41,624 bases of DNA from Acidobacteriota bacterium (GTDB lineage: Bacteria > Acidobacteriota > Vicinamibacteria > Vicinamibacterales > 2-12-FULL-66-21): positions 1 through 41,624 of the forward strand of contig JBDTOB010000001.1 of assembly GCA_039933435.1 (NCBI GenBank), written 5' to 3'. The notes below the pieces were generated by a model. The model saw only the letters and a program-made list of their open reading frames with translations. It was not told the DNA's origin and made no database searches. Shown here in pieces: positions 3 through 29,242 of this stretch. Within the stretch, counting starts at the first letter, position 1; each line of letters begins with the position of its first letter. The position numbers and the translations under genes were made by a program.

Positions 3-1676
3 GGGGCGGTCGTGCCGCCGCGGCCCGATCGCTGGCATCGCCATCCCACCCCCACCTTCGGCGGCATCGGCATCATCGCCGGCATTGCCGTGGGTGCGGC
101 CGCGGGCGGCGGGATGACGACCGCCGCGGCGCCGATCCTCGCGGCCGTCGCGGCGCTGTTCGTGATCGGGTACTACGACGACCTGGCGCCACTCTCGGCG
201 CTGGCGAAGATGGTCAATTCGCTGGCGGTGGCCGCCTTCTTCGTCCTCGCGCTGACGACGGTTCGGAGCACACCCGCCCAGGCGGCGCTGGCGATCGCCG
301 CCATCGTCTGGTTCGGAGGTCTCGACAATGCCGTGAACCTGCTCGACAACATGGACGGCCTCGCCGCTGGGGTGACCGCGATGGCCGCGGCGGCGCTCGC
401 GCTGACGTTCTTCTCCGAGCTTGGACCCCACGTCGTCGGGGTGCCGATTGCGCTCGCCGGCGCGCTGGTGGGGTTCCTCGGCTGGAACCGCCATCCGGCG
501 AAGCTGTTCATGGGCAACTGCGGCAGTCTGGCGATCGGCGGACTGGTGGCCGCGACCGGGCTCACCGCGGTGGCGCGCGTCGGCACCGTGACCTCGGCGG
601 TCGCCGTGGCGCTCATCTTCATCGTCCCGCTGGTGGATACGACCTTCGTCGTGCTGCTGCGCCGCCTCGCCGGGCGCAGCACCACGCGCGGCAATGTCGA
701 CCATCTGTCGCACCGGCTGGTCGCCGCCGGCTTCTCCGAGCCTGGGGCGGTCGGCCTGCTCTACGCGATCGGCGCGCTCGGCGCCGGCGCCGGCTACAGC
801 ATCCACGTCTACGGCGTCTCGGCCTGGCCGCTGGCGGCGGCGGTGGCGATCGGCGTGCTGATGATGGCGCTCTATCTGGCGCGCCTTCCGGCCTACGCCG
901 GGCAGGACTTCCAGGCGCTGCAGGCGGCGCCGTTCGCGCCGATGCTCGCGGACCTGACGTTCCGGTGGCACGCCGGCGAGGTGCTGCTGGATCTGGTACT
1001 GATCGCCACTTCCTACTACGCCGCCTACCGGCTGCGGTTCGAGGGAGAAGCGCTCGCCACCTTCCTCCCGGGGTTCGCGATGTCGCTGCCGGCCATCCTC
1101 GGGTGCCAGATGGCGGCGCTCTACGTGTCGGGGCTCTACTCGCGGATGTGGACGACGTTCGGCCTGCACGATGTCTCGACGGTGCTGCGCGGCGTCGCCG
1201 CCGGCTCGGTGCTCTCCGTCCTCTCGGTGACCTACCTCTTCAAGTTCGAGCGGTTCTCGCGCGGGGTCTTTGTCATCGACGCGGTGCTGCTGACCGCCGC
1301 CATCCTCGCGACCCGCTCGTCGTTCCGGATCTTCGGACGGATTGCGGCCCGCAGCAGCCCGCACCAGGCGCGGGTGGCGATCTACGGCGCCGGCGCGCGC
1401 GGACAGCTGCTGGTCCGCGAGATGATGGCCAACGGCGCCTGGGGCCGCAATCCCGTGGTGTTCATCGACGACGACGCCGCGAAGCGGGCGCAGCGCATCA
1501 TGGGCATTCCGGTGAAGGGATCGATCGAAGAGCTGGCGGCGGTGATGGCGCAGCTGCGGATCGAGGAAGTGGTGCTGAGCTCGCCGGCGATCGGCGACGA
1601 CGTCGAGGCACGGGTGCGGGCGCTGTGCGCTCCGCGCGAAGTGGCGGTGCGCCGGCTGCGGCTGGATATCGAGTGA
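3..1676 (+). CDS. Polyprenyl-phosphate HexNAc-1-phosphate transferase (GT4, MraY/WecA family), 5'-partial, fused to a C-terminal 4-TM plus Rossmann-like region of WbaP/CapD N-terminal type
   Basis: The frame is open to the window edge, with no stop from nt 3. The first motif, HPTPTFGG, normally lies ~50 aa into WecA-like proteins, so the true start is upstream. Family motifs: GYYDDL, NLLDNMDGLAAG, FMGNCGSLAIGG, VPLVDTTFVVLLRR..VDHLSHRL. After ~aa 300 come hydrophobic helices, then IYGAGARGQLLVREM..VVFIDDD..GIPVKG. Confidence 0.85.
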   Translation, partial: GAVVPPRPDRWHRHPTPTFGGIGIIAGIAVGAAAGGGMTTAAAPILAAVAALFVIGYYDDLAPLSALAKMVNSLAVAAFFVLALTTVRSTPAQAALAIAAIVWFGGLDNAVNLLDNMDGLAAGVTAMAAAALALTFFSELGPHVVGVPIALAGALVGFLGWNRHPAKLFMGNCGSLAIGGLVAATGLTAVARVGTVTSAVAVALIFIVPLVDTTFVVLLRRLAGRSTTRGNVDHLSHRLVAAGFSEPGAVGLLYAIGALGAGAGYSIHVYGVSAWPLAAAVAIGVLMMALYLARLPAYAGQDFQALQAAPFAPMLADLTFRWHAGEVLLDLVLIATSYYAAYRLRFEGEALATFLPGFAMSLPAILGCQMAALYVSGLYSRMWTTFGLHDVSTVLRGVAAGSVLSVLSVTYLFKFERFSRGVFVIDAVLLTAAILATRSSFRIFGRIAARSSPHQARVAIYGAGARGQLLVREMMANGAWGRNPVVFIDDDAAKRAQRIMGIPVKGSIEELAAVMAQLRIEEVVLSSPAIGDDVEARVRALCAPREVAVRRLRLDIE

Positions 1677-3666: not shown

Positions 3667-4007
3667 ACACTTGAGCGGCTCTAACCAGACCATTACCAAC
3701 ACAAACAGCGTAGCCGTAGCGCCGTCGCACGCGGTTCGGATACACTCAGGGGACATGCTGCGGCCGCTCCGATGCTGAGGCTGCTTCCGCCGATGGGTGG
3801 AAAGGCGTTCGTCATTCCCGCGCACGGCGGTAGGTGCGGTCTCGCAGGCTCCGCCAGCAGGACTTGCCGTGCTCCCGATCATCCGCACAAACAACTACGA
3901 TCGCCTGGGGCCACTGCTCCGGGCTTGCGCCACTCTTCGGAGTTCGGTTCGCGGCCGACCCATCCACGCTTAGAGGCGATGTCCGTCTTTCCAATCTCCT
4001 TACGACC

Positions 4008-4868
4008 ATGACCAGCACACCTGACAGGACGTTTAGACCGAGAGGAGGGCCCGATACGCTTGTCGACTCCAACGCCGACACCGCCGGCGTCGTCGGTACC
4101 GTGCGGGCGGTCTTTCGATACCGCGAGTTGCTCAAGCACCTGGTATTGAAGGATCTGAAGCTGAAGTATCGGGGCTCGTGGCTTGGCTTCATCTGGTCGC
4201 TGGTCAACCCCCTGATGATGCTCGTGGTCTACCTCGTGGCGTTCAAGTACATCCTCCGCGTGCGCGGGGAAGGATTCGTCTTCCTGCTGCTGCTGGCCAT
4301 TCTCGCCTGGACGTTCTTCTCGAACTCGCTGAGCATGTCCGCTGGCGGCATTGTCGACAACGGTGCGCTGATCAAGACCGTCGCCTTTCCGAGAGCGGTG
4401 CTGCCCATCTCCTCGGTACTTTTCAACCTCGCTCAATATCTGCTGACGGCTGCGGTGTTCATTCCGCTGATGCTCCTGCTGCACCGGACCCCCCCAGCCG
4501 CTCCGATGCTCTTGTTTCCCGTCTTCCTGTTGCTGCAACTGGCGTTCACGGTCGGTATCGGGCTGGCGCTGGCCACCGGCACGACGTTCTTTCGAGACAT
4601 CCGCCATTTCCTCGAGATCGCACTGTCGGTGATGTTCTGGACGACTCCAATCGTCTACGACTTCCGCACCATTCCCGCGGCTTGGCAATGGCTGGTGCTG
4701 CTGAGCCCGCTGTCGAGCTTTGTCCTGGCCTATCAGCAAATCTTTTATTACCGGGAGTGGCCTGGGGCGGCGGTCAGCGCCATCGCGTTCTCCTATGCCG
4801 TGATCGCGCTGTCCGCCGGGGTGGTGCTGTTCTCGCGGTACGACCGGGAGTTCTCGGAGCAGCTCTGA
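4008..4868 (+). CDS. wzm: ABC-2 type polysaccharide exporter permease (Wzm/TagG/KpsM-like)
   Basis: ATG at 4008 is the first start after a non-coding-looking leader. N-terminal amphipathic LKDLKLKYRGSWLGFIWSLVNPL is followed by about six hydrophobic segments. The stop lies 2 nt before the ATPase start. Confidence 0.85.
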   Translation: MTSTPDRTFRPRGGPDTLVDSNADTAGVVGTVRAVFRYRELLKHLVLKDLKLKYRGSWLGFIWSLVNPLMMLVVYLVAFKYILRVRGEGFVFLLLLAILAWTFFSNSLSMSAGGIVDNGALIKTVAFPRAVLPISSVLFNLAQYLLTAAVFIPLMLLLHRTPPAAPMLLFPVFLLLQLAFTVGIGLALATGTTFFRDIRHFLEIALSVMFWTTPIVYDFRTIPAAWQWLVLLSPLSSFVLAYQQIFYYREWPGAAVSAIAFSYAVIALSAGVVLFSRYDREFSEQL

Positions 4869-4870
4869 CC

Positions 4871-6334
4871 ATGGCCACGTTCATCGATATTCAGAACATC
4901 TCGAAGCGGTTTTTGCTGCGGCGGAACCGCTCGGGCGACCTGAAGTCGCGCTTCCTGGGAATCTTCTTCCGGGAGCGTCGGGAGATCGTCGACGATCTGT
5001 GGGCACTGAAAGATGTGTCGCTGGACGTCGGCCAGGGGGAGTCCATCGGACTCGTCGGCCGCAATGGCTCAGGGAAGAGCACGCTGCTGCGCGTCGCTGC
5101 CGGCATGCATCGACCGACGTCGGGAAAGGTCCTGACCCGGCCTGGCGTGCGAATAACGACGCTCATCGAGTTGGGGGTGGGATTTCACCCGGAGCTGAGC
5201 GGGCAGGAGAATATCTACCTGAATGCCGCCATTCATGGCCTCTCACGGCGGCACATCGACGAGATCTACCGGGACGTGGTCGATTACGCCGAACTGAGTG
5301 ACTTCATGGATGTGCCCCTGAAGAACTATTCCTCCGGTATGCAGATGCGGCTGGGATTCGCGGTGGCGGCCCATCTCGACCCGGACGTGCTTCTGCTTGA
5401 CGAGATCTTCGCCGTGGGGGACGAGGACTTCCAGAAACGGTGCCTGAAGACCGTGCATCGGTTCCTGAACGCCGGCAAGACGATCCTCTTCGTGTCGCAT
5501 GCGGCCGCCTCCGTTCGTTCGATCTGCCGGCGGGTCTGTCTGCTCGACCACGGCCACCTCCTGTTCGACGGCGACGTCGATGCGGGCCTCGGGGCCTATC
5601 ACCGGCTGCTGGAGACGACGGCGGCCCCGGCCGCGGCGCCAGAGCCGGTGCCGGGTCTCACCGCAGCGGCGGTCGAGGAGAGCGGCCTGCGCGACTCGGC
5701 CGAACTGGACCGAGCCTGGCACCGGATGGCAGCGGGCGGTTTGTGGGACGAGGTCGGCACCTTGTATTTCGACTTCCTGCGGGCACAGGGCCTGCAGCCC
5801 CATCACTACCTGCTCGATGTCGGATGCGGCAGTTTTCGCCTCGGCGTTCATCTCGTGCCCTATCTGCAGCCGGGACGTTACATCGGTCTCGAGAGCAACG
5901 AGGATCTCGTCCGGGCGGGAGCCGAACTGGAACTGCCCCGTGTCGGCATCGAGCCGCGGGGCGTGCGTGTGGTGATCAGCAATTGCTTCGATCTGGCAGG
6001 CCTGCCGCTGATGGACTTCGCCATCGCCCAGTCAGCCTTCACACAGATGTCGTTGAATGGCATCGCGCAGGGCGTGGCGATGGTAGTCCGTAAACTGGCG
6101 CCTGGCGGACGCTTCTTCGCGGCCTACTACGAGAATCCGGACCCGGCCGCCGGCGACGCCATCCTGCATCCCGGGGGGATCAAGAGCCATCCCGATGCCG
6201 ATCCGTACCACGCGACCTTTGCCGTCCTGGCCGGCGTCTGCGCCGGCGTCGGTGCCCGCGCGGAGCGGGTCACCGGCTGGCAGCATCCGCAGGGTCAGCA
6301 GATGATGGTGATCACGCGCCGCTTGCAAGACTGA
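4871..6334 (+). CDS. wzt: Polysaccharide ABC exporter ATP-binding protein (Wzt-like) with C-terminal class I SAM-methyltransferase domain
   Basis: ATG at 4871 (MATFIDIQNISKRF). ABC motifs: Walker A GRNGSGKST, signature YSSGMQMRLGFA, Walker B VLLLDE, H-loop FVSHA. A Pro/Ala linker (AAPAAAPEPVPG) follows. MTase motifs: LLDVGCGSFRLG, IGLESNEDLV, DFAIAQSAF, LAPGGRFF. Confidence 0.85.
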   Translation: MATFIDIQNISKRFLLRRNRSGDLKSRFLGIFFRERREIVDDLWALKDVSLDVGQGESIGLVGRNGSGKSTLLRVAAGMHRPTSGKVLTRPGVRITTLIELGVGFHPELSGQENIYLNAAIHGLSRRHIDEIYRDVVDYAELSDFMDVPLKNYSSGMQMRLGFAVAAHLDPDVLLLDEIFAVGDEDFQKRCLKTVHRFLNAGKTILFVSHAAASVRSICRRVCLLDHGHLLFDGDVDAGLGAYHRLLETTAAPAAAPEPVPGLTAAAVEESGLRDSAELDRAWHRMAAGGLWDEVGTLYFDFLRAQGLQPHHYLLDVGCGSFRLGVHLVPYLQPGRYIGLESNEDLVRAGAELELPRVGIEPRGVRVVISNCFDLAGLPLMDFAIAQSAFTQMSLNGIAQGVAMVVRKLAPGGRFFAAYYENPDPAAGDAILHPGGIKSHPDADPYHATFAVLAGVCAGVGARAERVTGWQHPQGQQMMVITRRLQD

Positions 6335-10632: not shown

Positions 10633-11358
10633 ATGTCCAAACTCACCCTTGGTGACGCCTATCGTCGATTCGTCAAGTCGCTCGAGCAGACTCATGAACA
10701 CGAGAAGGCGATGCAGGTCGCCATCGGCGGCGAGTTCGACGCCGTCGGCGTGATTGAGCGCGAAATCCTCATCCATTACGGCCTGCCCCCCGAGGGGTTC
10801 GTAATCGACGTCGGCTGCGGCTCTGGACGACTGAGCAAGCCGCTCTCGGCCTACCTCACCGGTCCGTATCTCGGGATTGACGTCGTCCCGGAACTGGTCG
10901 CGCACGCCAGGGCTCTGGCCAGCCGCCCCGACTGGACGTTCGCAGTCGCGGCCGGACTGGAGATTCCCGCCGCCGCCGACTCTGCGGACATGGTCTGCTT
11001 CTTCTCGGTCTTCACCCACCTGCTTCACGAACAGTCCTACGTCTATCTGCGTGAAGCGAAGCGCGTGCTCAAGCCGGGCGGCAGGGCGGTGTTCTCGTTT
11101 CTCGAGTTCGCACAACCCTCGCACTGGAACATTTTCGAAAGTACGGTCGCCGACCGCGGCGCCGAGCATCTCAATGTATTCATCGGCCGTGACGCCATCC
11201 AGGCGTGGGCGGCCCACCTGCAGCTGGAAGTGGTGTCGATCGTCGGCGGCGACCAGCCTCAGACTCCGCTGCGGGAACCGCTGACGATGGAGGACGGGAC
11301 CGTGCAGACGGGATCCGCAACCCTCGGGCAGTCGCTATGTGTGCTCGGGAAACCGTAG
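10633..11358 (+). CDS. Class I SAM-dependent methyltransferase
   Basis: Motif I VIDVGCGSGRLSKPL, post-I LGIDVVPELV, DMVCFFSVFTHL, LKPGGRAVFSF. Motif spacing matches the Wzt C-terminal domain. Confidence 0.85.
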   Translation: MSKLTLGDAYRRFVKSLEQTHEHEKAMQVAIGGEFDAVGVIEREILIHYGLPPEGFVIDVGCGSGRLSKPLSAYLTGPYLGIDVVPELVAHARALASRPDWTFAVAAGLEIPAAADSADMVCFFSVFTHLLHEQSYVYLREAKRVLKPGGRAVFSFLEFAQPSHWNIFESTVADRGAEHLNVFIGRDAIQAWAAHLQLEVVSIVGGDQPQTPLREPLTMEDGTVQTGSATLGQSLCVLGKP

Positions 11359-11417: not shown

Positions 11418-14400
11418 ATGAAGACTGAGGCTTTTCAGCAGGACATCTATCAACGCTACAGCGTGCTCACGCGTCTGCTGGTCGCGGCCTTCCCGCCGCC
11501 GGCGGATGGCACTGTCGTCGACATCCTCGATATCGGCGCCGGGCCAGAGCGTCTGGCCGAACGGTTCCTGCCGCCCTATTTCCACATCACGCGGGCTGAC
11601 GTCGACACCGCGGGAGACACGGCGATCGTCCGCCTCGACCCCGGTCAACCGCTGCCCTTCGAACGCGACGCTTTTCCGGTAGTGATCGCGCTGGAGGTGC
11701 TCGAGCACGTCCCTGCCGCCGGACGGACCGCGCTCATCCACGAGTGTGCCCGGGTGGCTTCGAGCGTCGTCGTCCTCAGCTGTCCGGTGGCCTCACCGCT
11801 GACCAGCCGCGCCGAGGAAATCTTCCAGGCGCTCGCGACCCGCATCAGCGGCACCACACTGGCGTTTCTCGACGAACACAAGGCCGAGGGCCTCCCCGAC
11901 GCGGAGGCGATCCGCGCGGCACTCGAACAGCGGATGCCGCAGGTGTTCGACATCGCCAACTCCTCGTTGCCGGAGTGGCTGATTTACAACGCCATCGACC
12001 TGGCCTACGCCTGTGACTTCGGTGACGGCGAGGAGAAAGGCCGGTTCAACAGCGGCGTCAACGCCGCCGCGCCGCTGAGCGGGCGCGGGCCGCATTACCG
12101 GCGGTTTTTCGCCGGATGCGCCGACCAGTCGATGGGCGAGCGGCTGTCCGGCGCGCTGCGCGCGATTCCCTCGGACGGCGATCCCTTGGCCACCGCGGTC
12201 ACCATCGCCGAATCGCTGACCCTGTTTCGGGAGGACCTGCTCCGCAAGCATGCCGAGGGTCTGCGGCTCGCCGTCAAGGCCAAGGACCGGCACATCGACG
12301 CGCTGGACCAGGTGATCGTTCAGCTTCAGCGCGAAGGCCGGCACGATGCGAACGGGGATATCGGAGGGGACGTCGGTGGGGTTGCCGAACCCGCCGTTCC
12401 GGTGCCTCAGGCTCCCGATCGCACGTCCGTGCCGGCCAAAATGACGACGAAGCTGCGGGTGGCCAGGTCGCGCCTGCGAACGCTTCGGCTGGGCATCAGG
12501 CTGTCGAGCGACATCAAGGCGCTCGTCGCCCGCAGCCGCCTGTTCGACGCGGGGTACTACACCAACCGCTACCCGGACGTGGCCGCCAGCGGCATCGATC
12601 CGCTGGTGCACTATCTCGTGGTCGGGGGCGCGGAAGGACGCGGTCCCAACGCGATTTTCGACGACGTTTATTACGCGAGCCGCTCTCCGGACCTTCAGCC
12701 GTCTGGTCTGAACCCGCTCGTCCACTACCTGACCATCGGAGCGGCCGAGGGACGCGACCCGCATGCGCTTTTCGACTCGGCGTATTACGTCGCCTCCCAT
12801 CCGGAAGTGACGGCATCCGGGCTCACCCCGCTGGCGCACTATGTGATGCACGGCGCGGATCTTCGCTGGGATCCGAATCCGCTGTTCTGGACCGGCTTCT
12901 ATTTCGACACCTATCCGGATGTCGTCGGCTTGGGGATGAATCCGCTCGCGCATTACCTGCAGACCGGCGCTGGTGAGGGGCGGCAGCCAAGCCCCCTGTT
13001 CGACGTGCCGTTCTATCGGGCTCGAAATCCGGGGGTCGCGGCACAGGCCGATCCGTTACAGCACTACCTGGCGGCAGGCGGCGCCGAAGAACGCGACCCA
13101 CATCCGCTCTTTGACACGGCCTACTACCTCGCCCGCCATCCGGAAGTGAGGCAATCGGGTCACACCCCGCTGGCGCACTATGTGCTGCACGGCGCGCGGC
13201 TGCGATGGGACCCGACGCCGCTTTTCTGGACAGGGTTCTACGCCGACGCCTACCCGGACGTCTCTTCCTCAGGGATGAATCCGCTCGCGCACTACGTCCT
13301 CTCCGGGGCCGTGGAGGGACGTAATCCCAATCCCTTGTTCGAGGCCGCCTTTTATCGGAGCCGCAACGCCGACGTGGTTCCCCCGCACGTCGATCCGCTG
13401 CTCCATTACCTGGCGGAGGGTGCGGCGCTTGGGCGCGATCCACATCCGTTGTTCTCGACGCGCTACTACCTGTCGGCCAATCCTGACGTCGAGGCCGCGA
13501 ATCTCAACCCACTGGTTCACTATCTGCTGCACGGCGCAGGCGAAGGACGCCGCCCGAATCCGCTGTTCGATGCCGCCTATTACGGCCGCGGGCTCGACCT
13601 GCCGCCAGGTGCAAATCCGCTCGTCCACTATCTCGGCGAGGGGGCGAGGTCGGGACGGAACCCGCACCCGCTGTTCGACGCGGCTTTTTACCTGGCCAGC
13701 CACCCGGAGGCTGCGGTGGACCCGTCGGGAGCGCTGGCGCATTACCTCTCGACTGGCGCGGAGACGAAGTGGGATCCGCATCCGCTGTTTTCCAGCGAGT
13801 ACTACCTGTCGCGGAACCCGGACGTCGCCGCGGCGGGCGTCAACCCGCTAGTCCATTACGTACTGCACGGCGCCGCCGAGGGCCGCAGCCCGCACCCGTA
13901 TTTCGACGGGGCGTACTACCTGGCCTGCAATCCCGACGTCGCCCGCGACGGCGTCAACCCGTTGGTGCACTACCTGCAGACCGGCGCCGAGGAAGGCCGG
14001 AAGCCCTCCGCGCTGTTTGACACCCGCCACTACCTCGCCGAAAACCCGGACGTCGCCGCGGCGTCCGTCAATCCTCTCGCGCACTATGTCCTGCACGGAC
14101 GAGCCGAGGGGCGGACGCCGAACCGGCTCTTCGATCCGGCGTACTATCTCTCGACGAGCCGCGCCGGTGAGCCGGCCGCCTCGGACCCTCTCCGGCATTT
14201 CATCGATCATGGCGCCGCGGAAGGGCGCAACCCCTCTGCCGCTTTCGACACCTCCTTTTATCTTCGCCAGAATCCCGACGTCGCGGCCGCCGGCCTGAAT
14301 GCACTGGCGCATTACCTGGACCACGGCGAGGAGGAAGGGCGCCGGGCGGCGCCGTCGGCGGCCGGCGTGGCGGCCGAGCTTTCCGGGCGCTTCGTGCCGC

Positions 14401-17400
14401 CAGTGGGGCTGCTGCCCTGGTTCAACCCGCTGACCCTGGGGCTGGACCCCGGACTGGACCAGACACCGGCCCTCAATGTCCTGGTGCCCGGCCTCGCCAT
14501 GCAGCACATGTCAGGCGGCCCCAACACCGCGCTGCACATTGCCTATCGCCTCGCCGCCCTCGGCGTCCGCGTGCGGCTGATCTCCACAGACGCGCCGATG
14601 TCGGACCCCGAGCTGCTCTGGGGGCATCTCCTGCAGCTCATCGGCACTGACCGGCGGCTGCCCAACATCGAGTTCGCCGACGCGCACGACCGCAATCAGG
14701 TACTGGCCATCGGCCGCAACGATCTCTTCTTCGCGACCGCCTGGTGGACGGCGCAGATGGCCAAGTTCGCCATCGAGTTCACCCGCCACAAGCAGTTCGT
14801 GTACCTGGTCCAGGATTACGAGCCGCTCTTGCACGCCGCGTCGACTTCGCAGGCTCTCGCCGAGGAAACCTACTCGCTCGATTTCATCCCGATCGTCAAT
14901 TCACGCCTGCTCTTCGATTTCCTGACGGTCAACGGCATCGGACGCTTCGCCGAGCAGGAGTTCGCGGACACGGCTCTCGTGTTCGAGCCGGCAGTCGACC
15001 GTTCGCGCTTTTTCGTGGAGCCGGCCTCACCGGACCGGCCGCGCCGGTTGCTCTTCTACGCGCGTCCGACCACGGCGCTGCGCAATCTCTTCGAGTTGGG
15101 CGCGGCGGCGCTCATGGACGCTGCCGCGCGCGGGGTGTTCGACGCCGGGCCGTGGGAGCTGCTGGCCATGGGCGAGCCGATAGCGCCGGTGGCGGTTGGA
15201 CACGGCCTGGTGTTGACGCCGGCGCCGTGGCTGGATTTCGAGGGGTACGCGGCGCAGATGCGCCAGGCGGATGTCCTGCTCTCGCTGATGCTGTCACCGC
15301 ACCCCAGCTATCCACCGCTGGAGATGGCGTCCTGCGGCGGGGTCACCGTCACCACCAGTTTCGGATCCAAGACCGCCGCGCGGCTGGCTGTCATCTCCCC
15401 GAACATCCTCGGGGCGCCCCCGACTGTCGAAGGTGTCGCCGACGCCCTCATCGAGGCGATCGTCCGCAGCCGCACGGCGCGCGCGGATCCGCGCGCCGGA
15501 GCGCTCGACCTGCCGTCGACCTGGGACGAGAGCCTCGCCCCGATTCTGCCGGGCCTGCTGGCGGCGCTGCTCGAAGCCGCCGGGGCGCCCCGCGCCGGCC
15601 GCGTCTGGAACGCGCCGGCGCTGGGAACCAGTGACATCGCGTGTGGCTTCCAAACGTGGCCCGTCACCGCCTACGAACACTTTCGCATCGATCGCATGAG
15701 CCGCCGGCGGAGCGCCGCGCCGTCGGTTCGACCGGATCCGGGGCTGCTCTCGCTGATCACGACGGCCTGGAACACCGAGCCGCGGTTTCTGGAATATCTC
15801 GCCGCCAGCGTGTTTCAGCAGGACGGCGATCCGCCGTTCGAGTGGGTGATTATCGACAACGGCAGCGATCGTGACGACACCCGGCGGTGCCTGAGCGAGA
15901 TCGCGTCCCACCCGGCGGTCCGGTTGCACCGCATCGAGAGCAACGCCGGGATCGCCGGCGGCATGCGGCTGGCCCTGGAACGCGCGAGCGGCCGCTACGT
16001 GCTTCCAGTCGATTCCGACGACTATCTCTACCCCGACTGTTTGCGCCTGGTGGCGGCGGGCTTGGTCTCGGCTGGATTCCCGACGCTGCTCTACACAGAC
16101 GAGGACAAGCTCAGCGACGACGGCTGGCGCGATCCCTACTTCAAGCCCGACTGGGATCCCGTCCTCTTCGCCAATTCGTGTTACATCGCGCACCTCTGCG
16201 CGATCGATCGTGCGACGGCGCTGCACCTCGACTGCTACGCCGATGCCATCGCGGATGGCAGCCATGACTGGGACACGTTCACCCGCTTCACCGTCGCGGG
16301 CCACGCCCCTGTCCATCTGCCGGAAGTCCTCTACGGCTGGCGGATGCATGCCGGATCGACCGCTGCCAACATCGAGGCCAAGTCCTACATCGTCGCCTCG
16401 CAGCGGGGAGTGTTGACGAGGTTCCTGGACTCGCGGCGGGAGGCGGCGCGGTTCACCATCGAGCGCAGCCCGCTGTTTTCCGGCACCCCGGACTGGTGGA
16501 TCCGCAGGCTGCCGGTGGAGCCTCGCCCGATCACGACCGTAATCCTCCAGAAAACAGAGGAGACGGCGGCGGCCGGTGTCGAGATCGACGCCAGGATTCC
16601 ACACGATGTGAGAACGGTCACGGGTGAGGCGGCGCTCGACGAACTGCGAGCCATCGCGCTGGACTGCGCGGCGCGAGCGGGCCTGGTGCATCTGCTCGCC
16701 GATGATGTCGAGAGCGACAACCCGGAGTGGCCGTGGGAAGCCATGGGCATGATCGAGCTGTTCGAGGATACGGTCATGGTGGGCGGACGGATCCACGACG
16801 GCCGGCGGCTACTTTCGAGCGGCTTGCTGTTCGGGTTCGGGTCCGGCTGCGATGCCCCGGACCGTGGCCGCGACCTCAGGGATCCAGGGTATTTCGCGCA
16901 GGCCTTCAAGCCGCATTCGGTCAGCGCGGTGCCCGCCGATCATGCGATCGTCGAGCCCGGCTTCCTGGCTGCCGCGCTCTTCGAACTTCGCGATCTGCCG
17001 ATCTCGATCGCGGCTCTCGGTCCGTGGCTTGGCGCCGCGGCCCGGCGCGCCGGCAGCAGGGTTGCCTACTCGCCCTTCATCAGCGGCCGGGTTCCACGGG
17101 GACGTACGGATGGGTGGGACGAGCGCGAACTCTCCCTGTTTCGATCCGTCAATCATGACCTCATGCCCGAACGGCGGCTGCTCTCTCCGCACTTGGGGCT
17201 CACCCGCGAGACGGCGTTTCTGCCCGTCACGGAAGAACAGCGACGCGACGAGGAGGCGAACGCCGGCGCCTTGCGTCCGGAGTACCGGGAGGGGCTGGCC
17301 GGAACGCTGTGGGCGCGGCGTCGGACCTATGCGCTACCGGCGCGCGTGCCGTCTTTGTCGATCCTGACCACCCTCTACAGCGGAACCGACGCCCCGCTCT

Positions 17401-18836
17401 TCGCTGAAACCGCGGCGTCGCTGCTCAGGCAGACCCTGCCGTTCGGGGAGTGGATTGTGCTCGCCCATGGTCCGGTGTCCGCCGCGCTGGCGGCGGCGCT
17501 CGAGCGTCTGGAAGGGACACCCCGCGTCCGGGTCCTCAGGCTCCCGGAGAATCTCGGCATCATGGGAGGAATGCGCACCTGCCTGCTGGCGGCGGCGGGT
17601 GACTATGTGATTCCAGTCGATGGCGACGACCTGCTAATGGACGATGCGCTGCAGATCGTGGCGAGCGTGGCGGGCAACAGCGATTCCGCGCCGATGCTGA
17701 TCTATTCCGACGAAGACGTCCTGGACAACGGCGGCCCCCGATCTCCTTACATCCGTCCGGACTTCGATCCCGTGCTCAACTTCGATTCGTCCTACATCTG
17801 GCATCTCTGCGCCATCCGCCGCGATGCGGCCCTCGCCGAGGGGCTGTATTCGGATGCGGCGATGGAGTTCTGCCATGACTGGGACAGCGTGACCCGGATT
17901 GCAGCCATCGAACCGCCGTCTCACGTCCCCGAGGTGCTGTATCACTGGCGCCATCACGAGGCCTCGCATACCAATCGCGCGACCCAGCACGTGGGATCGA
18001 TCGATTCCACCCGGCGGCTGCTCGAGCGGCGGGCGTCACAGCTGCCCCATCCATCCCTGTTCGAGGTCGCCGAGTTCCCCGTATTTCGCGGTGCCCGGGA
18101 ATGGTATCTGCGCCGCAAGCCGATCGAGCCGCCGCCGATCGCGGTGATCGTGACCGCCGCACGAGAGCCGGGCCCGGAGCCGATGCACGCGTGGCTGGAG
18201 AGGAGTGCATACCCGTTTGCGGCTGTCTTGTCTGCGGCGAACGCCGCCGAGGAAGCGGCCATCCTGCGGGAGCTCGCCTCAGCCGGCGGGGTCCAATACG
18301 TCGCGGTGGTCGCCGCGGAGATCGAGCCTGGCGGCGACGAGTGGATTTGGGAAGCCATCCGTCTCTTCGAGTGCCATCCCGAAGTGGCGATGTGCGGAGG
18401 GCGCCTGGTCGATCGCACACAGACGGTGGTGCGCAGCTGTGGAGTCCTGGACGAACGCGGCGCACTGATTGAGCCGTTCGCCGGTCTCGCGGCGCTCGAC
18501 CCCGGCCCGTTCGCCCTGGCGCTCAAGCCGCACCTCGTGGCCGCGGTGCCGGAGCCGTTGTATGTGGTCGCAACAGCCAATCTGCCGCTGCCGCTCCCGG
18601 ACGGCCGCCACCCGGATCGGCGCGCCCTGCGGCTGGCGGCAGACGCCTGGTCGAGTGGACGCACGGTGGCTTATACTCCACTCATAGAGGCCCGGATCGG
18701 CGACGCCGCCCGGCTGGCGCCGTCGGGGTCGAGCACGCCGGGCGACCGGATGGCCCTGGCGAGACTGTCGGAGGCGCTTGCGGGCCGGCGTCTGGGCGCC
18801 AGTGGCCTGGTGAGCGTGCAACGGCGGTATCGCTGA
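11418..18836 (+). CDS. Giant (2,472 aa) multidomain glycan assembly protein: SAM-methyltransferase, helical linker, 16 tandem 38-aa repeats, GT-B glycosyltransferase region, two GT2 A-B cassettes
   Basis: One uninterrupted ORF. Domains by aa position:
- ~30-150: MTase (VDILDIGAGPERL, VVIALEVLEHVP)
- 376-977: repeats
- ~1018-1350: GT-B region (NVLVPGLAMQHMSGGPNT.., QDYEPLL, PPLEMASCGGVTVTT)
- ~1443-1960: GT2 cassette (ITTAWNTEPRF, VIIDNGSD, LPVDSDDYL, LYTDEDK..FKPDWDP)
- ~1978-2472: GT2 cassette (ILTTLYSG, IPVDGDDLL, IYSDEDV..IRPDFDP). Confidence 0.85.
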   Translation: MKTEAFQQDIYQRYSVLTRLLVAAFPPPADGTVVDILDIGAGPERLAERFLPPYFHITRADVDTAGDTAIVRLDPGQPLPFERDAFPVVIALEVLEHVPAAGRTALIHECARVASSVVVLSCPVASPLTSRAEEIFQALATRISGTTLAFLDEHKAEGLPDAEAIRAALEQRMPQVFDIANSSLPEWLIYNAIDLAYACDFGDGEEKGRFNSGVNAAAPLSGRGPHYRRFFAGCADQSMGERLSGALRAIPSDGDPLATAVTIAESLTLFREDLLRKHAEGLRLAVKAKDRHIDALDQVIVQLQREGRHDANGDIGGDVGGVAEPAVPVPQAPDRTSVPAKMTTKLRVARSRLRTLRLGIRLSSDIKALVARSRLFDAGYYTNRYPDVAASGIDPLVHYLVVGGAEGRGPNAIFDDVYYASRSPDLQPSGLNPLVHYLTIGAAEGRDPHALFDSAYYVASHPEVTASGLTPLAHYVMHGADLRWDPNPLFWTGFYFDTYPDVVGLGMNPLAHYLQTGAGEGRQPSPLFDVPFYRARNPGVAAQADPLQHYLAAGGAEERDPHPLFDTAYYLARHPEVRQSGHTPLAHYVLHGARLRWDPTPLFWTGFYADAYPDVSSSGMNPLAHYVLSGAVEGRNPNPLFEAAFYRSRNADVVPPHVDPLLHYLAEGAALGRDPHPLFSTRYYLSANPDVEAANLNPLVHYLLHGAGEGRRPNPLFDAAYYGRGLDLPPGANPLVHYLGEGARSGRNPHPLFDAAFYLASHPEAAVDPSGALAHYLSTGAETKWDPHPLFSSEYYLSRNPDVAAAGVNPLVHYVLHGAAEGRSPHPYFDGAYYLACNPDVARDGVNPLVHYLQTGAEEGRKPSALFDTRHYLAENPDVAAASVNPLAHYVLHGRAEGRTPNRLFDPAYYLSTSRAGEPAASDPLRHFIDHGAAEGRNPSAAFDTSFYLRQNPDVAAAGLNALAHYLDHGEEEGRRAAPSAAGVAAELSGRFVPPVGLLPWFNPLTLGLDPGLDQTPALNVLVPGLAMQHMSGGPNTALHIAYRLAALGVRVRLISTDAPMSDPELLWGHLLQLIGTDRRLPNIEFADAHDRNQVLAIGRNDLFFATAWWTAQMAKFAIEFTRHKQFVYLVQDYEPLLHAASTSQALAEETYSLDFIPIVNSRLLFDFLTVNGIGRFAEQEFADTALVFEPAVDRSRFFVEPASPDRPRRLLFYARPTTALRNLFELGAAALMDAAARGVFDAGPWELLAMGEPIAPVAVGHGLVLTPAPWLDFEGYAAQMRQADVLLSLMLSPHPSYPPLEMASCGGVTVTTSFGSKTAARLAVISPNILGAPPTVEGVADALIEAIVRSRTARADPRAGALDLPSTWDESLAPILPGLLAALLEAAGAPRAGRVWNAPALGTSDIACGFQTWPVTAYEHFRIDRMSRRRSAAPSVRPDPGLLSLITTAWNTEPRFLEYLAASVFQQDGDPPFEWVIIDNGSDRDDTRRCLSEIASHPAVRLHRIESNAGIAGGMRLALERASGRYVLPVDSDDYLYPDCLRLVAAGLVSAGFPTLLYTDEDKLSDDGWRDPYFKPDWDPVLFANSCYIAHLCAIDRATALHLDCYADAIADGSHDWDTFTRFTVAGHAPVHLPEVLYGWRMHAGSTAANIEAKSYIVASQRGVLTRFLDSRREAARFTIERSPLFSGTPDWWIRRLPVEPRPITTVILQKTEETAAAGVEIDARIPHDVRTVTGEAALDELRAIALDCAARAGLVHLLADDVESDNPEWPWEAMGMIELFEDTVMVGGRIHDGRRLLSSGLLFGFGSGCDAPDRGRDLRDPGYFAQAFKPHSVSAVPADHAIVEPGFLAAALFELRDLPISIAALGPWLGAAARRAGSRVAYSPFISGRVPRGRTDGWDERELSLFRSVNHDLMPERRLLSPHLGLTRETAFLPVTEEQRRDEEANAGALRPEYREGLAGTLWARRRTYALPARVPSLSILTTLYSGTDAPLFAETAASLLRQTLPFGEWIVLAHGPVSAALAAALERLEGTPRVRVLRLPENLGIMGGMRTCLLAAAGDYVIPVDGDDLLMDDALQIVASVAGNSDSAPMLIYSDEDVLDNGGPRSPYIRPDFDPVLNFDSSYIWHLCAIRRDAALAEGLYSDAAMEFCHDWDSVTRIAAIEPPSHVPEVLYHWRHHEASHTNRATQHVGSIDSTRRLLERRASQLPHPSLFEVAEFPVFRGAREWYLRRKPIEPPPIAVIVTAAREPGPEPMHAWLERSAYPFAAVLSAANAAEEAAILRELASAGGVQYVAVVAAEIEPGGDEWIWEAIRLFECHPEVAMCGGRLVDRTQTVVRSCGVLDERGALIEPFAGLAALDPGPFALALKPHLVAAVPEPLYVVATANLPLPLPDGRHPDRRALRLAADAWSSGRTVAYTPLIEARIGDAARLAPSGSSTPGDRMALARLSEALAGRRLGASGLVSVQRRYR
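12543..14346 (+). repeat. Array of 16 tandem coding repeats (111-114 nt, 37-38 aa) inside the giant gene
   Basis: Consensus: F-D-x-x-(Y/F)-Y-x-x-x-N-P-D-V-A-A-A-G-x-N-P-L-(V/A)-H-Y-(L/V)-x-x-G-A-x-E-G-R-x-P-(H/N)-P-L. Units were counted by hand from FDAGYYTNRYPDV.. to FDTSFYLRQNPDV..HGEEEGRR. Confidence 0.95.
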
Positions 18837-19222: not shown

Positions 19223-20622
19223 TTAGAGTCCCGGGACGTGGTGGAAATTCGGTAGGGCTCCTTCGCTAGACAAGCGAAGCGGCCATCGCGCATCTTTCCG
19301 TGAGTTCTCTCTGGCGGGGGACGAAACACACGGAGGTGTTGAGACGATGGCCAAACCAAGGATGGATCTGTCGGCGTTCGTTGGCAAGCTCCTCGAGGAG
19401 CAAGACGGGGATGTGCTGCGGGAGGGGATTCGGGTCCTGTCGCAAGCCCTGATGGAAAGCGAGGTGGCCGGGTTGATTGGCGCCGAGCGTCACGAACGGA
19501 CCGGCGACCGGACGGCGTACCGCAACGGGAGCCGGACACGGACGTGGGACACGCGCGTGGGCACGATCGAGTTGGCGATCCCGAAAGTCCGCCCGGGCAC
19601 GTATTTTCCTTCGCTGCTTCAGCCGCGACGCCGCGCGGAACACGCGTTGCTGGCGGTCGTGCAGGAAGCCTACGTGCATGGCGTCTCGACGCGGAAGGTC
19701 GACGATCTCGTGAAAGCGCTCGGTCTCGACGGCATCTCGAAGTCTGATGTCTCACGGATTTGCGGCGACCTCGATCCGATCGTCGCGGCCTTCCGGACCC
19801 GGGCGCTGACGGGCGAGCATCGGTATCTGTGGGTCGACGCGACCTACCACAAGGTTTGCGTCGATGGCCGGGTCATCAGCCAGGCCACCGTCGTGGCGAT
19901 CGGCATCACCAGCGAGGGCGACCGGCAGGTGCTCGGCATCGACGTCGGGCCGTCCGAGGACCGCGCCTTCTGGACGGCGTTCCTGCGCAGCCTGGTGAAG
20001 CGCGCCTGAAGGGTGTCCGCCTGGTGATCTCCGACGCCCATGAGGGACTGAAGGCCGCCATCAGCACCGTGCTGTCAGGGACGACATGGCAGCGCTGTCG
20101 CGTGCATTTCATGCGGAACCTCCTGGCCACGGTCCCCCACGGGGCCCGCGAGGCCATCGTCCGCACCATCTTCGCGCAGCCCGATCATGCCTCGCCGCTT
20201 GTGCAGCTCCGCAAGGTCGCAGACGGGCTCCGCAGCCGATTTGCGCGCGCCGCGGCACTCCTCGAAGAGGCCGCGGAAGACATTCTGGCTTGTCGTCATT
20301 TGCCGTTGGAGCATCAGCGCCAATTACACAGTACGAATCCACTGGAGCGTCTCAACAAGGAAATCAAGCGCCGATCCAACGTCATCGGCATCTTTCCGAA
20401 CTCGGCGGCGGTGATCCGGCTGGTCGGGGCGATCTTGCTCGAGCAGGACGATCAATGGGCCGTCGCTGAACGACGGTACTTCAGCGCGGAGTCGATGAAG
20501 CAGCTTACGACGCCGACGCTGTCCACGACGGCGCAGGAGATTCTAGCGGCGACTGCGTAGGCGAGCCGAACTCACGAATGCGTCTGCCGACTTTCCACCA
20601 CTTGACGGGACACTACCCCCCC
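19219..20622 (+). mobile_element. IS256-family insertion sequence (~1.4 kb)
   Basis: Imperfect terminal inverted repeats. Left (19224-19258): TAGAGTCCCGGGACGTGGTGGAAATTCGGTAGGGC. Reverse complement of 20581-20615: TAGTGTCCCGTCAAGTGGTGGAAAGTCGGCAGACG. 26 of the first 32 positions are identical by hand alignment. Outer boundaries are uncertain by a few nt. The element encloses an IS256-type transposase. Confidence 0.8.
19347..20560 (+). pseudogene. IS256-family transposase, disrupted by a 1-nt frameshift near 20003-20006
   Basis: ORF 19347..20009 ends ..FWTAFLRSLVKRA*. The protein continues in the -1 frame as LKGVRLVISDAHEGLKAAI..WQRCRVHFMRN..TNPLERLNKEIKRR. Intact family members read ..LVKRGLKGV.. 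The sequence cgcgcctgaagg, versus expected cgcggcctgaagg, implies loss of one G. DDE residues lie in WVDATY, VISDAH and NPLERLN. Confidence 0.8.
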
Positions 20623-25780: not shown

Positions 25781-25788
25781 GCCCCGGC

Positions 25789-28004: not shown

Positions 28005-28012
28005 CGGCTCCG

Positions 28013-29241: not shown

Positions 29242-29242
29242 A

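What the first reader, a model, noticed from the sequence alone, without database searches (positions are those of the whole stretch)
11418..18836. 2,472-aa polypeptide joining a methyltransferase, a long repeat spacer and three glycosyltransferase regions: candidate terminator-ruler-polymerase
Seen:
- One uninterrupted 7.4-kb ORF.
- N-terminal class I SAM-MTase motifs (aa ~30-150).
- A short heptad-like helix (aa ~270-330).
- Sixteen 38-aa repeats (aa 376-977).
- A GT-B region (aa ~1018-1350).
- Two GT2 A-B cassettes running to the C-terminus.
- wzm and wzt lie 5 kb upstream, and no Wzy or Wzx-like gene is visible.

Established (from memory): in ABC-transporter-dependent O-antigen systems, chain length is set by a terminator coupled to a molecular ruler. 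In E. coli O9a this is WbdD (kinase/methyltransferase plus coiled coil) working with the polymerase WbdA. WbbB of Raoultella terrigena/Klebsiella O12 unites terminator, coiled-coil ruler and polymerising GT domains in one protein.

Inference: this protein has the same logic (capping MTase, spacer, polymerising GTs). It differs in using a non-coiled-coil tandem-repeat spacer and in being about twice the size. I know of no characterised equivalent.
Basis: partly seen in the sequence, partly recalled or inferred. Interest (0 to 1): 0.85.

Follow-up and report, generated by a model that had tools for sequence, protein, structure and literature searches.

The report
Giant glycan polymerase-terminator with solenoid spacer
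One 2,472-residue enzyme joins a capping methyltransferase to three sugar-adding modules, a known design for making surface sugar chains of set length, but separates them with sixteen copies of a common, unannotated 38-residue repeat of unknown function.

Summary
ORF 11418-18836 is intact and coding-like, and two independent metagenome orthologues share its full architecture.

The domains in order:
- a class I SAM-methyltransferase (confident model)
- a 56-residue heptad helix
- a disordered linker
- a cationic amphipathic helix
- sixteen 38-aa repeats
- a WsaF-type GT-B domain
- two duplicated GT2 + 'B' cassettes

wzm and wzt lie upstream, and no Wzy/Wzx-like membrane protein is present.

The methyltransferase-spacer-polymerase logic is real but not unprecedented:
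- Geobacillus WsaE plus WsaF have the same enzyme set.
- Klebsiella O7 ORF6 (2024) is methyltransferase-kinase, coiled coil, then two GT2 modules.

The new element is the repeat array:
- It is modelled confidently as one continuous helical solenoid.
- It has no PDB or Pfam match.
- It occurs in about 24,500 protein clusters, nearly always with glycosyltransferases.

A ruler role is plausible:
- The array sits between the terminator and the polymerase.
- Copy number changes in whole units.
- Three lineages keep 16 units.

It is unproven and cannot be the repeat's general role:
- Orthologues have 0-17 units.
- Methyltransferase-less polymerases carry equally long N-terminal arrays.

Verdict: new variant of a known kind, moderate-to-good interest.

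The parts
11418..18836 (+). Whole gene: 2,472-aa methyltransferase, spacer and triple glycosyltransferase protein. It has no predicted TM segment.
   Evidence: full-length orthologues P0002 and P0003
11418..12167 (+). aa 1-250: class I SAM-dependent methyltransferase domain, the candidate chain-capping terminator.
   Evidence: AF2 pLDDT ~95. Foldseek finds 295 PDB matches at E<=1e-3; the listed ones are almost all methyltransferases and include the sugar O-methyltransferases RebM and AtmM. D38/G40/G42/D61 are invariant in 21 orthologues.
12183..12350 (+). aa 256-311: a single long helix with heptad pattern, i.e. a short coiled-coil candidate. L274, I293 and L296 are nearly invariant.
12351..12437 (+). 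aa 312-340: Pro/Gly-rich disordered linker.
   Evidence: pLDDT <50 for aa 314-343; 17% Pro
12438..12545 (+). aa 341-376: Arg-rich amphipathic helices ending in the '...SRLF-D' lead-in. Net charge is +10. This is a candidate membrane-surface contact. An equivalent basic segment precedes most of the repeat arrays examined.
12546..14360 (+). aa 377-981: sixteen 36-38-aa repeats with consensus DxxYYLxxxPDVxxxGxNPLxHYLxxGAxEGRxPxPLF. They are predicted to form one continuous solenoid, with three short helices and a beta-bridge per unit. Net charge is -27.
   Evidence: AF2 pLDDT 89.4 and pTM 0.80; no PDB fold or sequence match and no Pfam match
14361..14468 (+). aa 982-1017: low-confidence linker leading to the conserved 'VPPxGLLPWFNPL' entry into the GT-B domain.
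14469..15467 (+). aa 1018-1350: WsaF-type GT-B glycosyltransferase (rhamnosyltransferase family).
   Evidence: Pfam WsaF_N and WsaF_C; PDB 2x0d/2x0e E 1e-34
15738..16517 (+). aa 1441-1700: GT2 catalytic domain 'A1', with 'VDSDD' and 'YTDEDK' motifs.
   Evidence: sequence
16518..17312 (+). aa 1701-1965: conserved 'B1' domain of unknown fold, always found after this type of GT2 domain.
   Evidence: hhalign Ba~Bb E 3e-59; not significantly related to GT2; no PDB or Pfam match
17313..18122 (+). aa 1966-2235: GT2 catalytic domain 'A2', with 'VDGDD' and 'YSDEDV' motifs.
   Evidence: sequence
18123..18833 (+). aa 2236-2472: 'B2' domain, a paralogue of B1.
3834..4868 (+). wzm: the ABC-2 permease. The real start is probably near 4008.
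4871..6334 (+). wzt: ABC ATPase (aa 1-~250) fused to a C-terminal class-I-methyltransferase-like domain (aa ~300-420, motif 'LLDVGCGSFRLG'). The canonical Wzt_C carbohydrate-binding domain is absent.
10633..11358 (+). Stand-alone 241-aa class I methyltransferase immediately upstream of the giant gene. It is conserved at this position in the syntenic locus L001.
12..1676 (+). Polytopic GT4-family (MraY/WecA-like) initiating phosphosugar transferase carrying a CoA_binding_3 domain.

Best explanation
The gene encodes a cytoplasmic, peripheral-membrane 'chain-extension plus termination' enzyme. It belongs to an ABC-transporter-dependent (Wzm/Wzt) pathway for a 6-deoxyhexose-rich, methylated surface glycan.

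Proposed mechanism:
1. Initiation. The glycan is started on undecaprenyl phosphate by the polytopic GT4-family transferase (12-1676). It is probably primed by the single-domain GT1 and GT2 genes at ~1673-3666.
2. Polymerisation. The C-terminal 1,450 residues polymerise the repeat. They comprise one WsaF-type GT-B module and two GT2 + B cassettes, most simply one linkage per module.
3. Termination. The N-terminal class I methyltransferase methylates the non-reducing terminal sugar and so stops extension. WsaE does this in Geobacillus, and WbdD and K. pneumoniae O7 ORF6 do so in Enterobacteria.
4. Spacing. Terminator and polymerase are held apart by a composite spacer:
   - a short coiled-coil-type helix (aa 256-311)
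   - a flexible linker
   - a strongly cationic amphipathic helix (aa 341-376) that probably touches the membrane
   - a rigid, acidic 16-unit solenoid (aa 377-981)

The solenoid is one instance of a very large, unannotated repeat family that travels with glycosyltransferases. Here it most likely acts as a length-adjustable rigid arm or scaffold. That arm adds to the terminator-polymerase separation and may thereby influence modal chain length.

Shown here: ORF integrity, domain folds and homologies, repeat structure prediction, distribution, and locus context.

Inferred: all catalytic activities, capping as the methyltransferase's role, membrane contact, and any ruler effect of the repeats.
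For: Architecture and folds.

Pathway context:
- wzm, wzt, an initiating transferase and NDP-6-deoxyhexose genes are present.
- No Wzy/Wzx-like membrane protein was found.

Characterised precedents for methyltransferase + 2 GT and for methyltransferase + coil + 2 GT2: PMC2943079 and PMC11231755.

Evidence that the methyltransferase is a terminator:
- All 21 methyltransferase-bearing orthologues have a spacer between the methyltransferase and the repeats that scores as partly coiled-coil-like (29-138 residues).
- Methyltransferase-bearing giants in L002, L006, L017 and L024 lie beside a Wzt with a CBD-like C-domain.
- Stand-alone homologues are methyltransferase + coil, and P0122 adds a basic tail.

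Evidence that the array is rigid and length-relevant:
- pTM is 0.80 for 677 residues.
- Copy number changes only in whole units: 16 versus 13 in a 69%-identical relative, and 16/14/13 among 86-97%-identical proteins.
- P0001, P0002 and P0003 all have 16 units, although P0002 reached that number through recent 3-unit block duplications.
- The lineage with the longest array has the shortest spacer between methyltransferase and repeats (116-129 aa against 146-297 aa in the others).

The cationic helix has net charge +10 and a hydrophobic moment in the top 1% of the protein. The array has net charge -27.
Against: - No activity has been measured for any domain.
- Besides the sugar C-methyltransferase gene, the locus holds four candidate O-methyltransferase-type domains: the 241-aa protein, the Wzt C-domain, the 344-aa ORF and the giant's N-terminal domain. 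The N-terminal domain could therefore decorate internal residues rather than cap the chain.
- This window's Wzt lacks the cap-binding Wzt_C domain.
- The repeats are not tied to terminators:
  - Methyltransferase-less orthologues carry 6-17 units at the N-terminus.
  - Their loci contain only small stand-alone methyltransferases.
  - No wzt lies within 10 kb.
  - Orthologues with a methyltransferase and no repeats exist (L024, L008).
- Disordered linkers flank the array, which weakens a strict rigid-ruler geometry.
- The inverse relation between spacer length and repeat number is not significant (Spearman -0.34, p 0.13, n 21).
Confidence: 0.65

Rival explanations
1. The repeats are not a ruler but a general accessory module of polymerising glycosyltransferases. 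Possible roles are a track or clamp that binds the nascent glycan (processivity), or a platform for oligomerisation and multi-enzyme assembly at the membrane. Under this view, chain length is set only by the methyltransferase + coiled-coil part, or by kinetics.
For: - About 24,556 protein clusters carry the repeat.
- In 53 sampled proteins the partners are GT2 (19), GT1/GT4 (~15), RgpF, WsaF, GT61 and WbsX. Methyltransferases or sulfotransferases appear in only 1-2.
- Arrays sit directly N-terminal to a GT in methyltransferase-less proteins.
- About 20 of the 38 positions are conserved, including aromatic and charged residues.
- Orthologues with 0 repeats still have methyltransferase + coil + polymerase.
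Against: - There is no evidence of glycan binding.
- The conserved residues may all be structural.
- A repeat sequence shared across partners that must make very different glycans argues against glycan-specific recognition.
- The window has only one repeat protein, so hetero-assembly through repeats is not needed here.
- Whole-unit copy-number variation and the retention of 16 units fit a length-dependent role equally well.
Confidence: 0.4
2. The N-terminal methyltransferase is a decorating enzyme that O-methylates internal sugars, not a terminator. Capping, if it happens at all, is done by the 241-aa methyltransferase or by the methyltransferase-like domain fused to Wzt.
For: - Besides the C-methyltransferase gene, four candidate O-methyltransferase-type domains are present in the locus.
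- The Wzt C-domain has intact SAM motifs and is related to the 241-aa methyltransferase.
- Methyltransferase-less relatives rely on small separate methyltransferases.
Against: - A catalytic domain placed at the distal end of a coiled-coil-type helix is described as the characteristic marker of terminators in these pathways (PMC11231755).
- Orthologous methyltransferase-bearing giants pair with CBD-type Wzt.
- WsaE's N-terminal methyltransferase is the characterised cap-forming enzyme in the closest enzyme set.
Confidence: 0.2
3. The long ORF is an assembly artefact or a decaying gene in an IS-ridden locus.
For: - An IS630-family transposase (9330-10382, minus strand) and Mutator-family transposase fragments (19347-20560) flank the gene pair.
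- The contig equals the window (41.6 kb), so it comes from a metagenome.
Against: - The reading frame is uninterrupted and GC3 is high throughout.
- The array DNA is diverged: the best direct repeat is 297 nt at 75%.
- Two independent assemblies give collinear 2,469-aa and 2,484-aa orthologues.
- Catalytic motifs are conserved.
Confidence: 0.03

Closest known systems
WsaE + WsaF of Geobacillus stearothermophilus NRS 2004/3a (S-layer poly-rhamnan, Wzm/Wzt-dependent)
   Same: - The enzyme set is the same: an N-terminal capping O-methyltransferase, two rhamnosyl-GT domains (WsaE) and a WsaF-type GT-B.
- Export is through an ABC transporter.
- The GT-B region here matches WsaF structures at E 1e-34.
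   Different: - Here all four activities sit in one polypeptide.
- A helix, a cationic helix and a 16-unit solenoid are inserted between the methyltransferase and the GTs.
- The GT order differs: the WsaF-type module comes first.
- Each GT2 carries an extra ~250-aa B domain.
K. pneumoniae O7 ORF6 (methyltransferase-kinase, coiled coil, two GT2 rhamnosyl modules; PMC11231755)
   Same: - It is a single protein with an N-terminal methyltransferase terminator, a central spacer and C-terminal GT2 polymerase modules.
- It lies in a wzm/wzt locus with rml genes.
   Different: - ORF6 is 1,414 aa. It has a kinase domain and an Ig-like domain, makes a methyl-phosphate cap, and uses a long coiled coil as spacer.
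- The window protein has no kinase domain and only a 56-aa helix.
- It adds the repeat solenoid and a third (GT-B) module.
WbbB (K. pneumoniae O12 / Raoultella terrigena) and WbdD/WbdA (E. coli O9a)
   Same: The logic is the same: the terminator is separated from the polymerase by a spacer, and export is cap-dependent (summarised).
   Different: - WbbB's terminator is a beta-Kdo transferase. WbdD's is a kinase-methyltransferase, and its polymerase is a separate protein.
- In both, the spacer is an extended coiled coil shown experimentally to be the ruler.
- WbdD did not appear among the sequence hits or the top 50 fold hits for the N-terminal domain.
Alpha-solenoid repeat families (ARM/HEAT, TPR/Sel1, MTERF, ankyrin)
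   Same: These are short helical units stacked into an elongated superhelix. The best but insignificant PDB fold hit is MTERF1.
   Different: - There is no significant fold or sequence match to any of them: Foldseek best E 2.3, and no Pfam or PDB profile match.
- The unit has three very short helices (7, 5 and 9 residues) plus a beta-bridge.

Membership tests
Terminator / coiled-coil ruler / polymerase systems of ABC-transporter-dependent glycan assembly (WbdD-WbdA, WbbB, O7 ORF6) | Wzm/Wzt ABC transporter in the locus, with no Wzy/Wzx | tested here: met
   wzm 3834-4868 and wzt 4871-6334. The only polytopic membrane proteins are the initiating GT and Wzm.
Terminator / coiled-coil ruler / polymerase systems of ABC-transporter-dependent glycan assembly (WbdD-WbdA, WbbB, O7 ORF6) | Chain-terminating catalytic domain at the end of the spacer distal from the polymerase | tested here: inconclusive
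   The position and the methyltransferase fold are confirmed. Capping activity cannot be tested with these tools, and other methyltransferases are present in the locus.
Terminator / coiled-coil ruler / polymerase systems of ABC-transporter-dependent glycan assembly (WbdD-WbdA, WbbB, O7 ORF6) | Extended coiled coil between the terminator and the polymerase or membrane end | tested here: inconclusive
   Only one 56-residue helix with heptad character is present. Orthologues with 8-9 repeats have ~106-138 coil-like residues. The oligomeric state was not modelled.
Terminator / coiled-coil ruler / polymerase systems of ABC-transporter-dependent glycan assembly (WbdD-WbdA, WbbB, O7 ORF6) | Wzt with a C-terminal carbohydrate-binding domain that recognises the cap | tested here: not met
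   The window's Wzt C-domain is class-I-methyltransferase-like, with no Wzt_C hit. The feature is met in orthologous loci L002, L006, L017 and L024.
Terminator / coiled-coil ruler / polymerase systems of ABC-transporter-dependent glycan assembly (WbdD-WbdA, WbbB, O7 ORF6) | Spacer length determines modal glycan chain length | not testable with these tools
   This needs genetics and LPS or glycan sizing. Only indirect comparative data are available.
WsaF-type rhamnosyltransferase (GT-B) | WsaF_N and WsaF_C domains, with sequence similarity to the solved WsaF structure | tested here: met
   Pfam 4e-23 and 4e-41, both above the cut-offs. PDB 2x0d/2x0e E 1e-34 over aa 1018-1349.
WsaE-type trifunctional methyl-rhamnosyltransferase | N-terminal O-methyltransferase followed by two GT domains in one chain; homology to WsaE itself | not tested
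   The architecture is analogous. The WsaE sequence was not retrievable, so homology was not measured.
GT2 (GT-A fold, inverting) glycosyltransferases | Pfam Glycos_transf_2 match and a DXD motif | tested here: met
   Two stretches match, E 3e-28. The motifs are VDSDD and VDGDD, and the corresponding D columns are at least 90% conserved in the 21-sequence orthologue alignment.
Class I SAM-dependent methyltransferases | Rossmann-like seven-strand fold with motif I (D/ExGxGxG) and an acidic residue at the end of beta-2 | tested here: met
   Fold. D38-x-G40-x-G42 and D61 are invariant. The Pfam score alone is below the gathering cut-off.
Known helical repeat families (TPR, Sel1, ARM/HEAT, ankyrin, MTERF) | Significant profile or fold match | tested here: not met
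   There is no Pfam hit at E<=1 other than one spurious hit at 0.18. There is no PDB profile hit. The best Foldseek PDB match has E 2.3.

The most novel reading that the evidence does not exclude
The 38-residue repeat would be a previously undescribed alpha-solenoid fold that serves as a modular, copy-number-tunable rigid arm in glycan-assembly machines. In methyltransferase-bearing enzymes like this one, it would supplement or replace the coiled coil as the molecular ruler that sets polysaccharide chain length. Adding or deleting 38-aa units (or the 3-unit blocks seen here) would then retune glycan length. The module would be used in this way across roughly 24,000 protein clusters in bacteria and in giant-virus glycosyltransferases.
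Probability: 0.25. Interest if true: 0.8.

Novelty: new variant of a known kind. Interest (0 to 1): 0.58.

Why it matters
How bacteria fix the length of ABC-transporter-exported glycans (O antigens, S-layer glycans, some capsules) is understood only for coiled-coil rulers in a few Enterobacteria.

- This protein family shows the same terminator-polymerase logic in Gemmatimonadota, Acidobacteriota and Alphaproteobacteria. It includes culturable Azospirillum, Caulobacter and Methylobacterium.
- It adds a second, structurally distinct spacer whose unit number varies naturally from 0 to 17.
- That gives a direct experiment: change the unit number and read the chain-length ladder.
- It also flags a repeat family of about 24,500 clusters that current domain databases do not describe and that has no match to any solved structure.
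- Even if the repeat proves to be a scaffold or a glycan track rather than a ruler, defining it would improve annotation of thousands of large glycosyltransferases.

Tried and rejected
- **Tandem Repeats Finder on the DNA** found no 114-nt array. The units are too diverged (mean 56% DNA identity), so the array was defined at protein level instead.
- **Pfam and NCBIfam** gave nothing for the repeats or the B domains.
- **PDB sequence and profile searches** gave nothing for the repeats or B.
- **The idea that B is a degenerate GT-A domain** was tested by hhalign against the GT2 profiles. It was not significant (probability 0.7-3.8%), so B is left as 'unknown fold'.
- **A word-indexed homologue search with the methyltransferase domain alone** returned only 3 proteins and missed the known orthologues. 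It says little about distribution.
- **WbdD-like identity of the methyltransferase.** There was no WbdD hit by sequence or among the top 50 fold hits, so no specific relationship is claimed.
- **Compensation between spacer length and repeat number.** The trend is negative but not significant, so it is not used as evidence of a constant total ruler length.
- **Physical length of the array.** Model coordinates are not exposed, so it could not be measured. Any figure (for example ~1 nm per unit) would be a guess and is not relied on.
- **Assembly collapse or expansion of repeats** is rejected because there are no long near-identical DNA repeats and independent assemblies agree.
- **Literature searches** found no paper describing this repeat as a ruler or describing giant WsaF-fusion enzymes.
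Full report
**1. The observation**

The window is ~67% GC. ORF 11418-18836 (+) is the longest ORF. It encodes 2,472 aa without a stop and has the GC3-rich signature of real genes here (GC1/2/3 = 0.71/0.50/0.82).

- **aa 1-250, methyltransferase.** Pfam alone detects it only weakly (Methyltransf_11, E 6e-4 to 6e-3, below the gathering score).
  - An AF2 model built on 21 orthologues is confident (mean pLDDT 86.9, about 95 over aa 1-250).
  - Foldseek finds 295 PDB matches at E<=1e-3. The 50 listed are almost all annotated methyltransferases, including the sugar O-methyltransferases RebM and AtmM.
  - Motif I (D38-x-G40-x-G42) and D61 are invariant in all 21 orthologues.
- **aa 256-311.** One long helix with heptad character.
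- **aa 314-343.** Disordered.
- **aa 341-373.** Arg-rich helices.
- **aa 377-981, sixteen 36-38-aa units.** Each scores 42-68 bits against an HMM built from them. No other ORF of the window contains the repeat.
- **aa 1018-1350, WsaF-type GT-B domain.** WsaF_N 4e-23, WsaF_C 4e-41, PDB 2x0d/2x0e 1e-34.
- **The remainder, a duplicated cassette.** It consists of GT2a-Ba (1441-1965) and GT2b-Bb (1966-2472). hhalign gives E 7e-121 for the two GT2 domains and 3e-59 for the two B domains.

The array DNA is diverged: the best direct repeat is 297 nt at 75%. Orthologues from two independent assemblies are collinear and have the same 16 units (P0002 2,484 aa, P0003 2,469 aa; 61-62% identity). An assembly artefact is therefore very unlikely.

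**2. Context**

Upstream on the same strand:
- a polytopic MraY/WecA-like initiating transferase (12-1676)
- a GT1-type gene and a GT2-type gene (~1673-3666)
- wzm (3834-4868) and wzt (4871-6334)
- a 947-aa Ig-domain protein
- an IS630-family transposase on the opposite strand
- a 241-aa methyltransferase

Downstream:
- Mutator-transposase fragments
- a GT4 gene
- a five-gene NDP-3-C-methyl-6-deoxyhexose pathway
- more multi-GT2 proteins
- rmlA

No Wzy/Wzx/Wzz-like polytopic protein is present, and the giant has no TM segment. Locus L001, which encodes P0002, is syntenic but lacks the IS elements.

**3. What it is**

The enzyme set matches the Geobacillus stearothermophilus S-layer poly-rhamnan system.
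- WsaE has an N-terminal methyltransferase that forms the 2-O-methyl cap, plus two rhamnosyl-GT domains.
- WsaE works with WsaF, and the glycan is exported by Wzm/Wzt (PMC2943079).

The one-polypeptide layout 'methyltransferase, spacer, two GT2 modules' has been characterised in K. pneumoniae O7 ORF6. That paper describes the coiled coil as the characteristic marker and ruler of terminator proteins (PMC11231755).

Three comparative findings support a terminator role for the N-terminal domain in this family:
- All 21 methyltransferase-bearing orthologues have a spacer after the methyltransferase that a simple heptad filter scores as partly coiled-coil-like (29-138 residues flagged).
- In four loci where wzt is visible next to a methyltransferase-bearing giant (L002, L006, L017, L024), Wzt carries a CBD-like C-domain. 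This domain type recognises terminal caps. Pfam Wzt_C is on record for L002. The other three were matched to the L002 domain by phmmer.
- Stand-alone homologues of the N-terminal part (P0122, P0123; 41% identity) are methyltransferase + coil, and P0122 ends in a basic tail. This is the WbdD layout.

I therefore read the protein as a fused terminator-polymerase of an ABC-transporter-dependent pathway. The claim that nothing equivalent has been characterised is not.

**4. The repeats**

This is the part without precedent.
- **Predicted structure.** An AF2 model of aa 341-1017 is confident (pLDDT 89.4, pTM 0.80). Every unit has three short helices (about 7, 5 and 9 residues) and a beta-bridge. 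The high pTM implies one continuous solenoid rather than beads on a string.
- **No known relative.** Foldseek finds nothing significant in the PDB (best E 2.3). Profile searches of PDB sequences and of Pfam find nothing either.
- **Distribution.** A profile of the 16 units recovers 24,556 of 1.84 billion cluster representatives at E<=1e-3. Of these, 15,959 reach 1e-10 and 4,239 reach 1e-30. The top-scoring proteins listed carry up to 24 units.
- **Partner domains.** In 53 sampled proteins the partners are GT2 (19), GT1/GT4 (~15), RgpF, WsaF, GT61 and WbsX. Methyltransferases or sulfotransferases appear only rarely.
- **Viral relatives.** In BFVD the best matches are giant-virus glycosyltransferases (Fadolivirus E 2e-7, Hyperionvirus GT2 E 1e-3).
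- **Lead-in.** Most of the arrays examined are preceded by an Arg-rich segment ending in '...(S)GLF-D'. Here that segment has net charge +10 and a hydrophobic moment in the top 1% of the protein. The array itself has net charge -27.

**5. Is the array a ruler?**

For:
- It lies between the putative terminator and the polymerase.
- It is predicted to be rigid.
- Its length changes only in whole units.
  - A 69%-identical Gemmatimonadota relative lacks three units.
  - A family of 86-97%-identical methyltransferase proteins has 16, 14 or 13 units.
- P0001, P0002 and P0003 all have 16 units. P0002 has a different internal history of recent 3-unit block duplications: units 8~11 are 97% identical and 9~12 are 95% identical.
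- The 16-unit lineage has the shortest spacer between methyltransferase and repeats.

Against:
- Orthologues range from 0 to 17 units.
  - L024 has methyltransferase + coil + polymerase and no repeat.
  - L008 splits the terminator and the polymerase into two ORFs, with no repeat.
- Methyltransferase-less orthologues carry 6-17 units at the very N-terminus. These include Methylobacterium, Caulobacter and Paraburkholderia.
  - In the two such loci examined in detail, L003 and L004, the only methyltransferase beside the giant is a small stand-alone one.
  - No wzt lies within 10 kb in L003, L004, L010, L012 or L013.
- The array is flanked by disordered linkers.
- The inverse relation between spacer length and repeat number is not significant (p 0.13).

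The fair conclusion has three parts. The repeat is a GT-associated structural module. In this protein it necessarily adds to the terminator-polymerase separation and may tune chain length. Its general function (rigid arm, assembly scaffold or glycan track) is open.

**6. Caveats on the terminator assignment**

The locus has an unusual number of methyltransferases:
- the 241-aa protein
- the 344-aa ORF at 20930-21964, which has a 'ELGAGYG' motif
- the sugar C-methyltransferase
- a class-I-methyltransferase-like domain fused to the C-terminus of Wzt in place of the CBD

The Wzt-methyltransferase fusion recurs in L001, L027, L040, L046, L056 and L064. Five of these six are annotated as Acidobacteriota-lineage MAGs; L001 is an unclassified metagenome contig. 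Which methyltransferase caps the chain in this organism is therefore not settled.

**7. Verdict**

- Observation: confirmed.
- Interpretation: partly supported.
- Novelty: a new variant of the known terminator-spacer-polymerase kind. It contains an uncharacterised but very widespread solenoid repeat.
- Interest: 0.58. The fusion logic itself is known. The repeat module, its natural copy-number variation, and the availability of culturable hosts make a concrete question about chain-length control directly testable.

Noticed in passing
window 4871-6334 (+); also L001, L027, L040, L046, L056, L064: Wzt (the ABC ATPase) carries a ~200-aa C-terminal class-I-methyltransferase-like domain with intact SAM motifs ('LLDVGCGSFRLG'). 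It is related to the adjacent 241-aa methyltransferase and replaces the usual Wzt_C carbohydrate-binding domain. The fusion recurs in six other loci; five are annotated as Acidobacteriota-lineage MAGs. It could be a transport-coupled methylase or a new cap-recognition domain.
   Followed up: partly
window 9330-10382 (-) and 19347-20560 (+): An IS630-family (DDE_3) transposase sits between the 947-aa gene and the 241-aa methyltransferase gene. Mutator-family transposase fragments lie just downstream of the giant gene. Both are absent from the syntenic locus L001, so they are recent insertions that may be polar on the operon.
   Followed up: partly
window 24342-29526 (-); L001 21631-26515; L003 3257-7833: A five-gene NDP-3-C-methyl-6-deoxyhexose pathway (nucleotidyltransferase, 4,6-dehydratase, C-methyltransferase, 3,5-epimerase, reductase) accompanies the giant gene in three unrelated loci. 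The polymer probably contains a branched-chain 6-deoxy sugar.
   Followed up: no
window 6490-9333 (+); L001 6212-9052: A 947-aa protein with Ig-like domain hits (Kre9_KNH, Big_7) and a weak hit to a secretion-sorting tail (Por_Secre_tail) is conserved between wzt and the methyltransferase gene in both syntenic loci. Its function in the glycan locus is unknown.
   Followed up: no
window 29243-31480 (-), 31492-35496 (+), 35503-37665 (+): There is a second block of large multi-GT2 proteins: 745 aa, 1,334 aa with four GT2 stretches, and 720 aa. The 720-aa protein is a single stand-alone GT2 + B cassette of the same type as in the giant, which shows that the A-B cassette is a mobile unit.
   Followed up: partly
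window 12546-14360, units 3-5 versus 6-8; P0002 units 3-13: The array has a higher-order period of three units (types 'RWDP', 'W-start' and 'DPHPLF'). Duplication occurs in 3-unit blocks. The window DNA has a 297-nt repeat at 75% identity, and P0002 has much more recent copies (up to 97% protein identity).
   Followed up: yes
BFVD hits A0A7D3UW82 (Fadolivirus), A0A3G5AB74 and A0A3G5A8D1 (Hyperionvirus): The only significant fold matches to the repeat solenoid (E<=1e-3) are two giant-virus glycosyltransferases. A Hyperionvirus FkbM methyltransferase matches more weakly (E 0.07). The module is therefore shared with Klosneuvirus-like viruses.
   Followed up: no
proteins P0064, P0065, P0067, P0083, P0084, P0092: Methyltransf_24-domain proteins that are 86-97% identical differ only by whole repeat units: 16, 14 or 13 units, giving 1,739, 1,663 or 1,625 aa. 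This is natural copy-number polymorphism of the array.
   Followed up: partly
window 12-1676 (+): The initiating MraY/WecA-like GT4-family transferase is fused to a CoA_binding_3 domain, which is usually seen in WbaP-type sugar transferases. The same fusion is present in L001.
   Followed up: no
window 20930-21964 (-): A 344-aa ORF with no significant Pfam hit carries a methyltransferase motif I ('VIAELGAGYGRL'). It would be another candidate methyltransferase in the locus.
   Followed up: no
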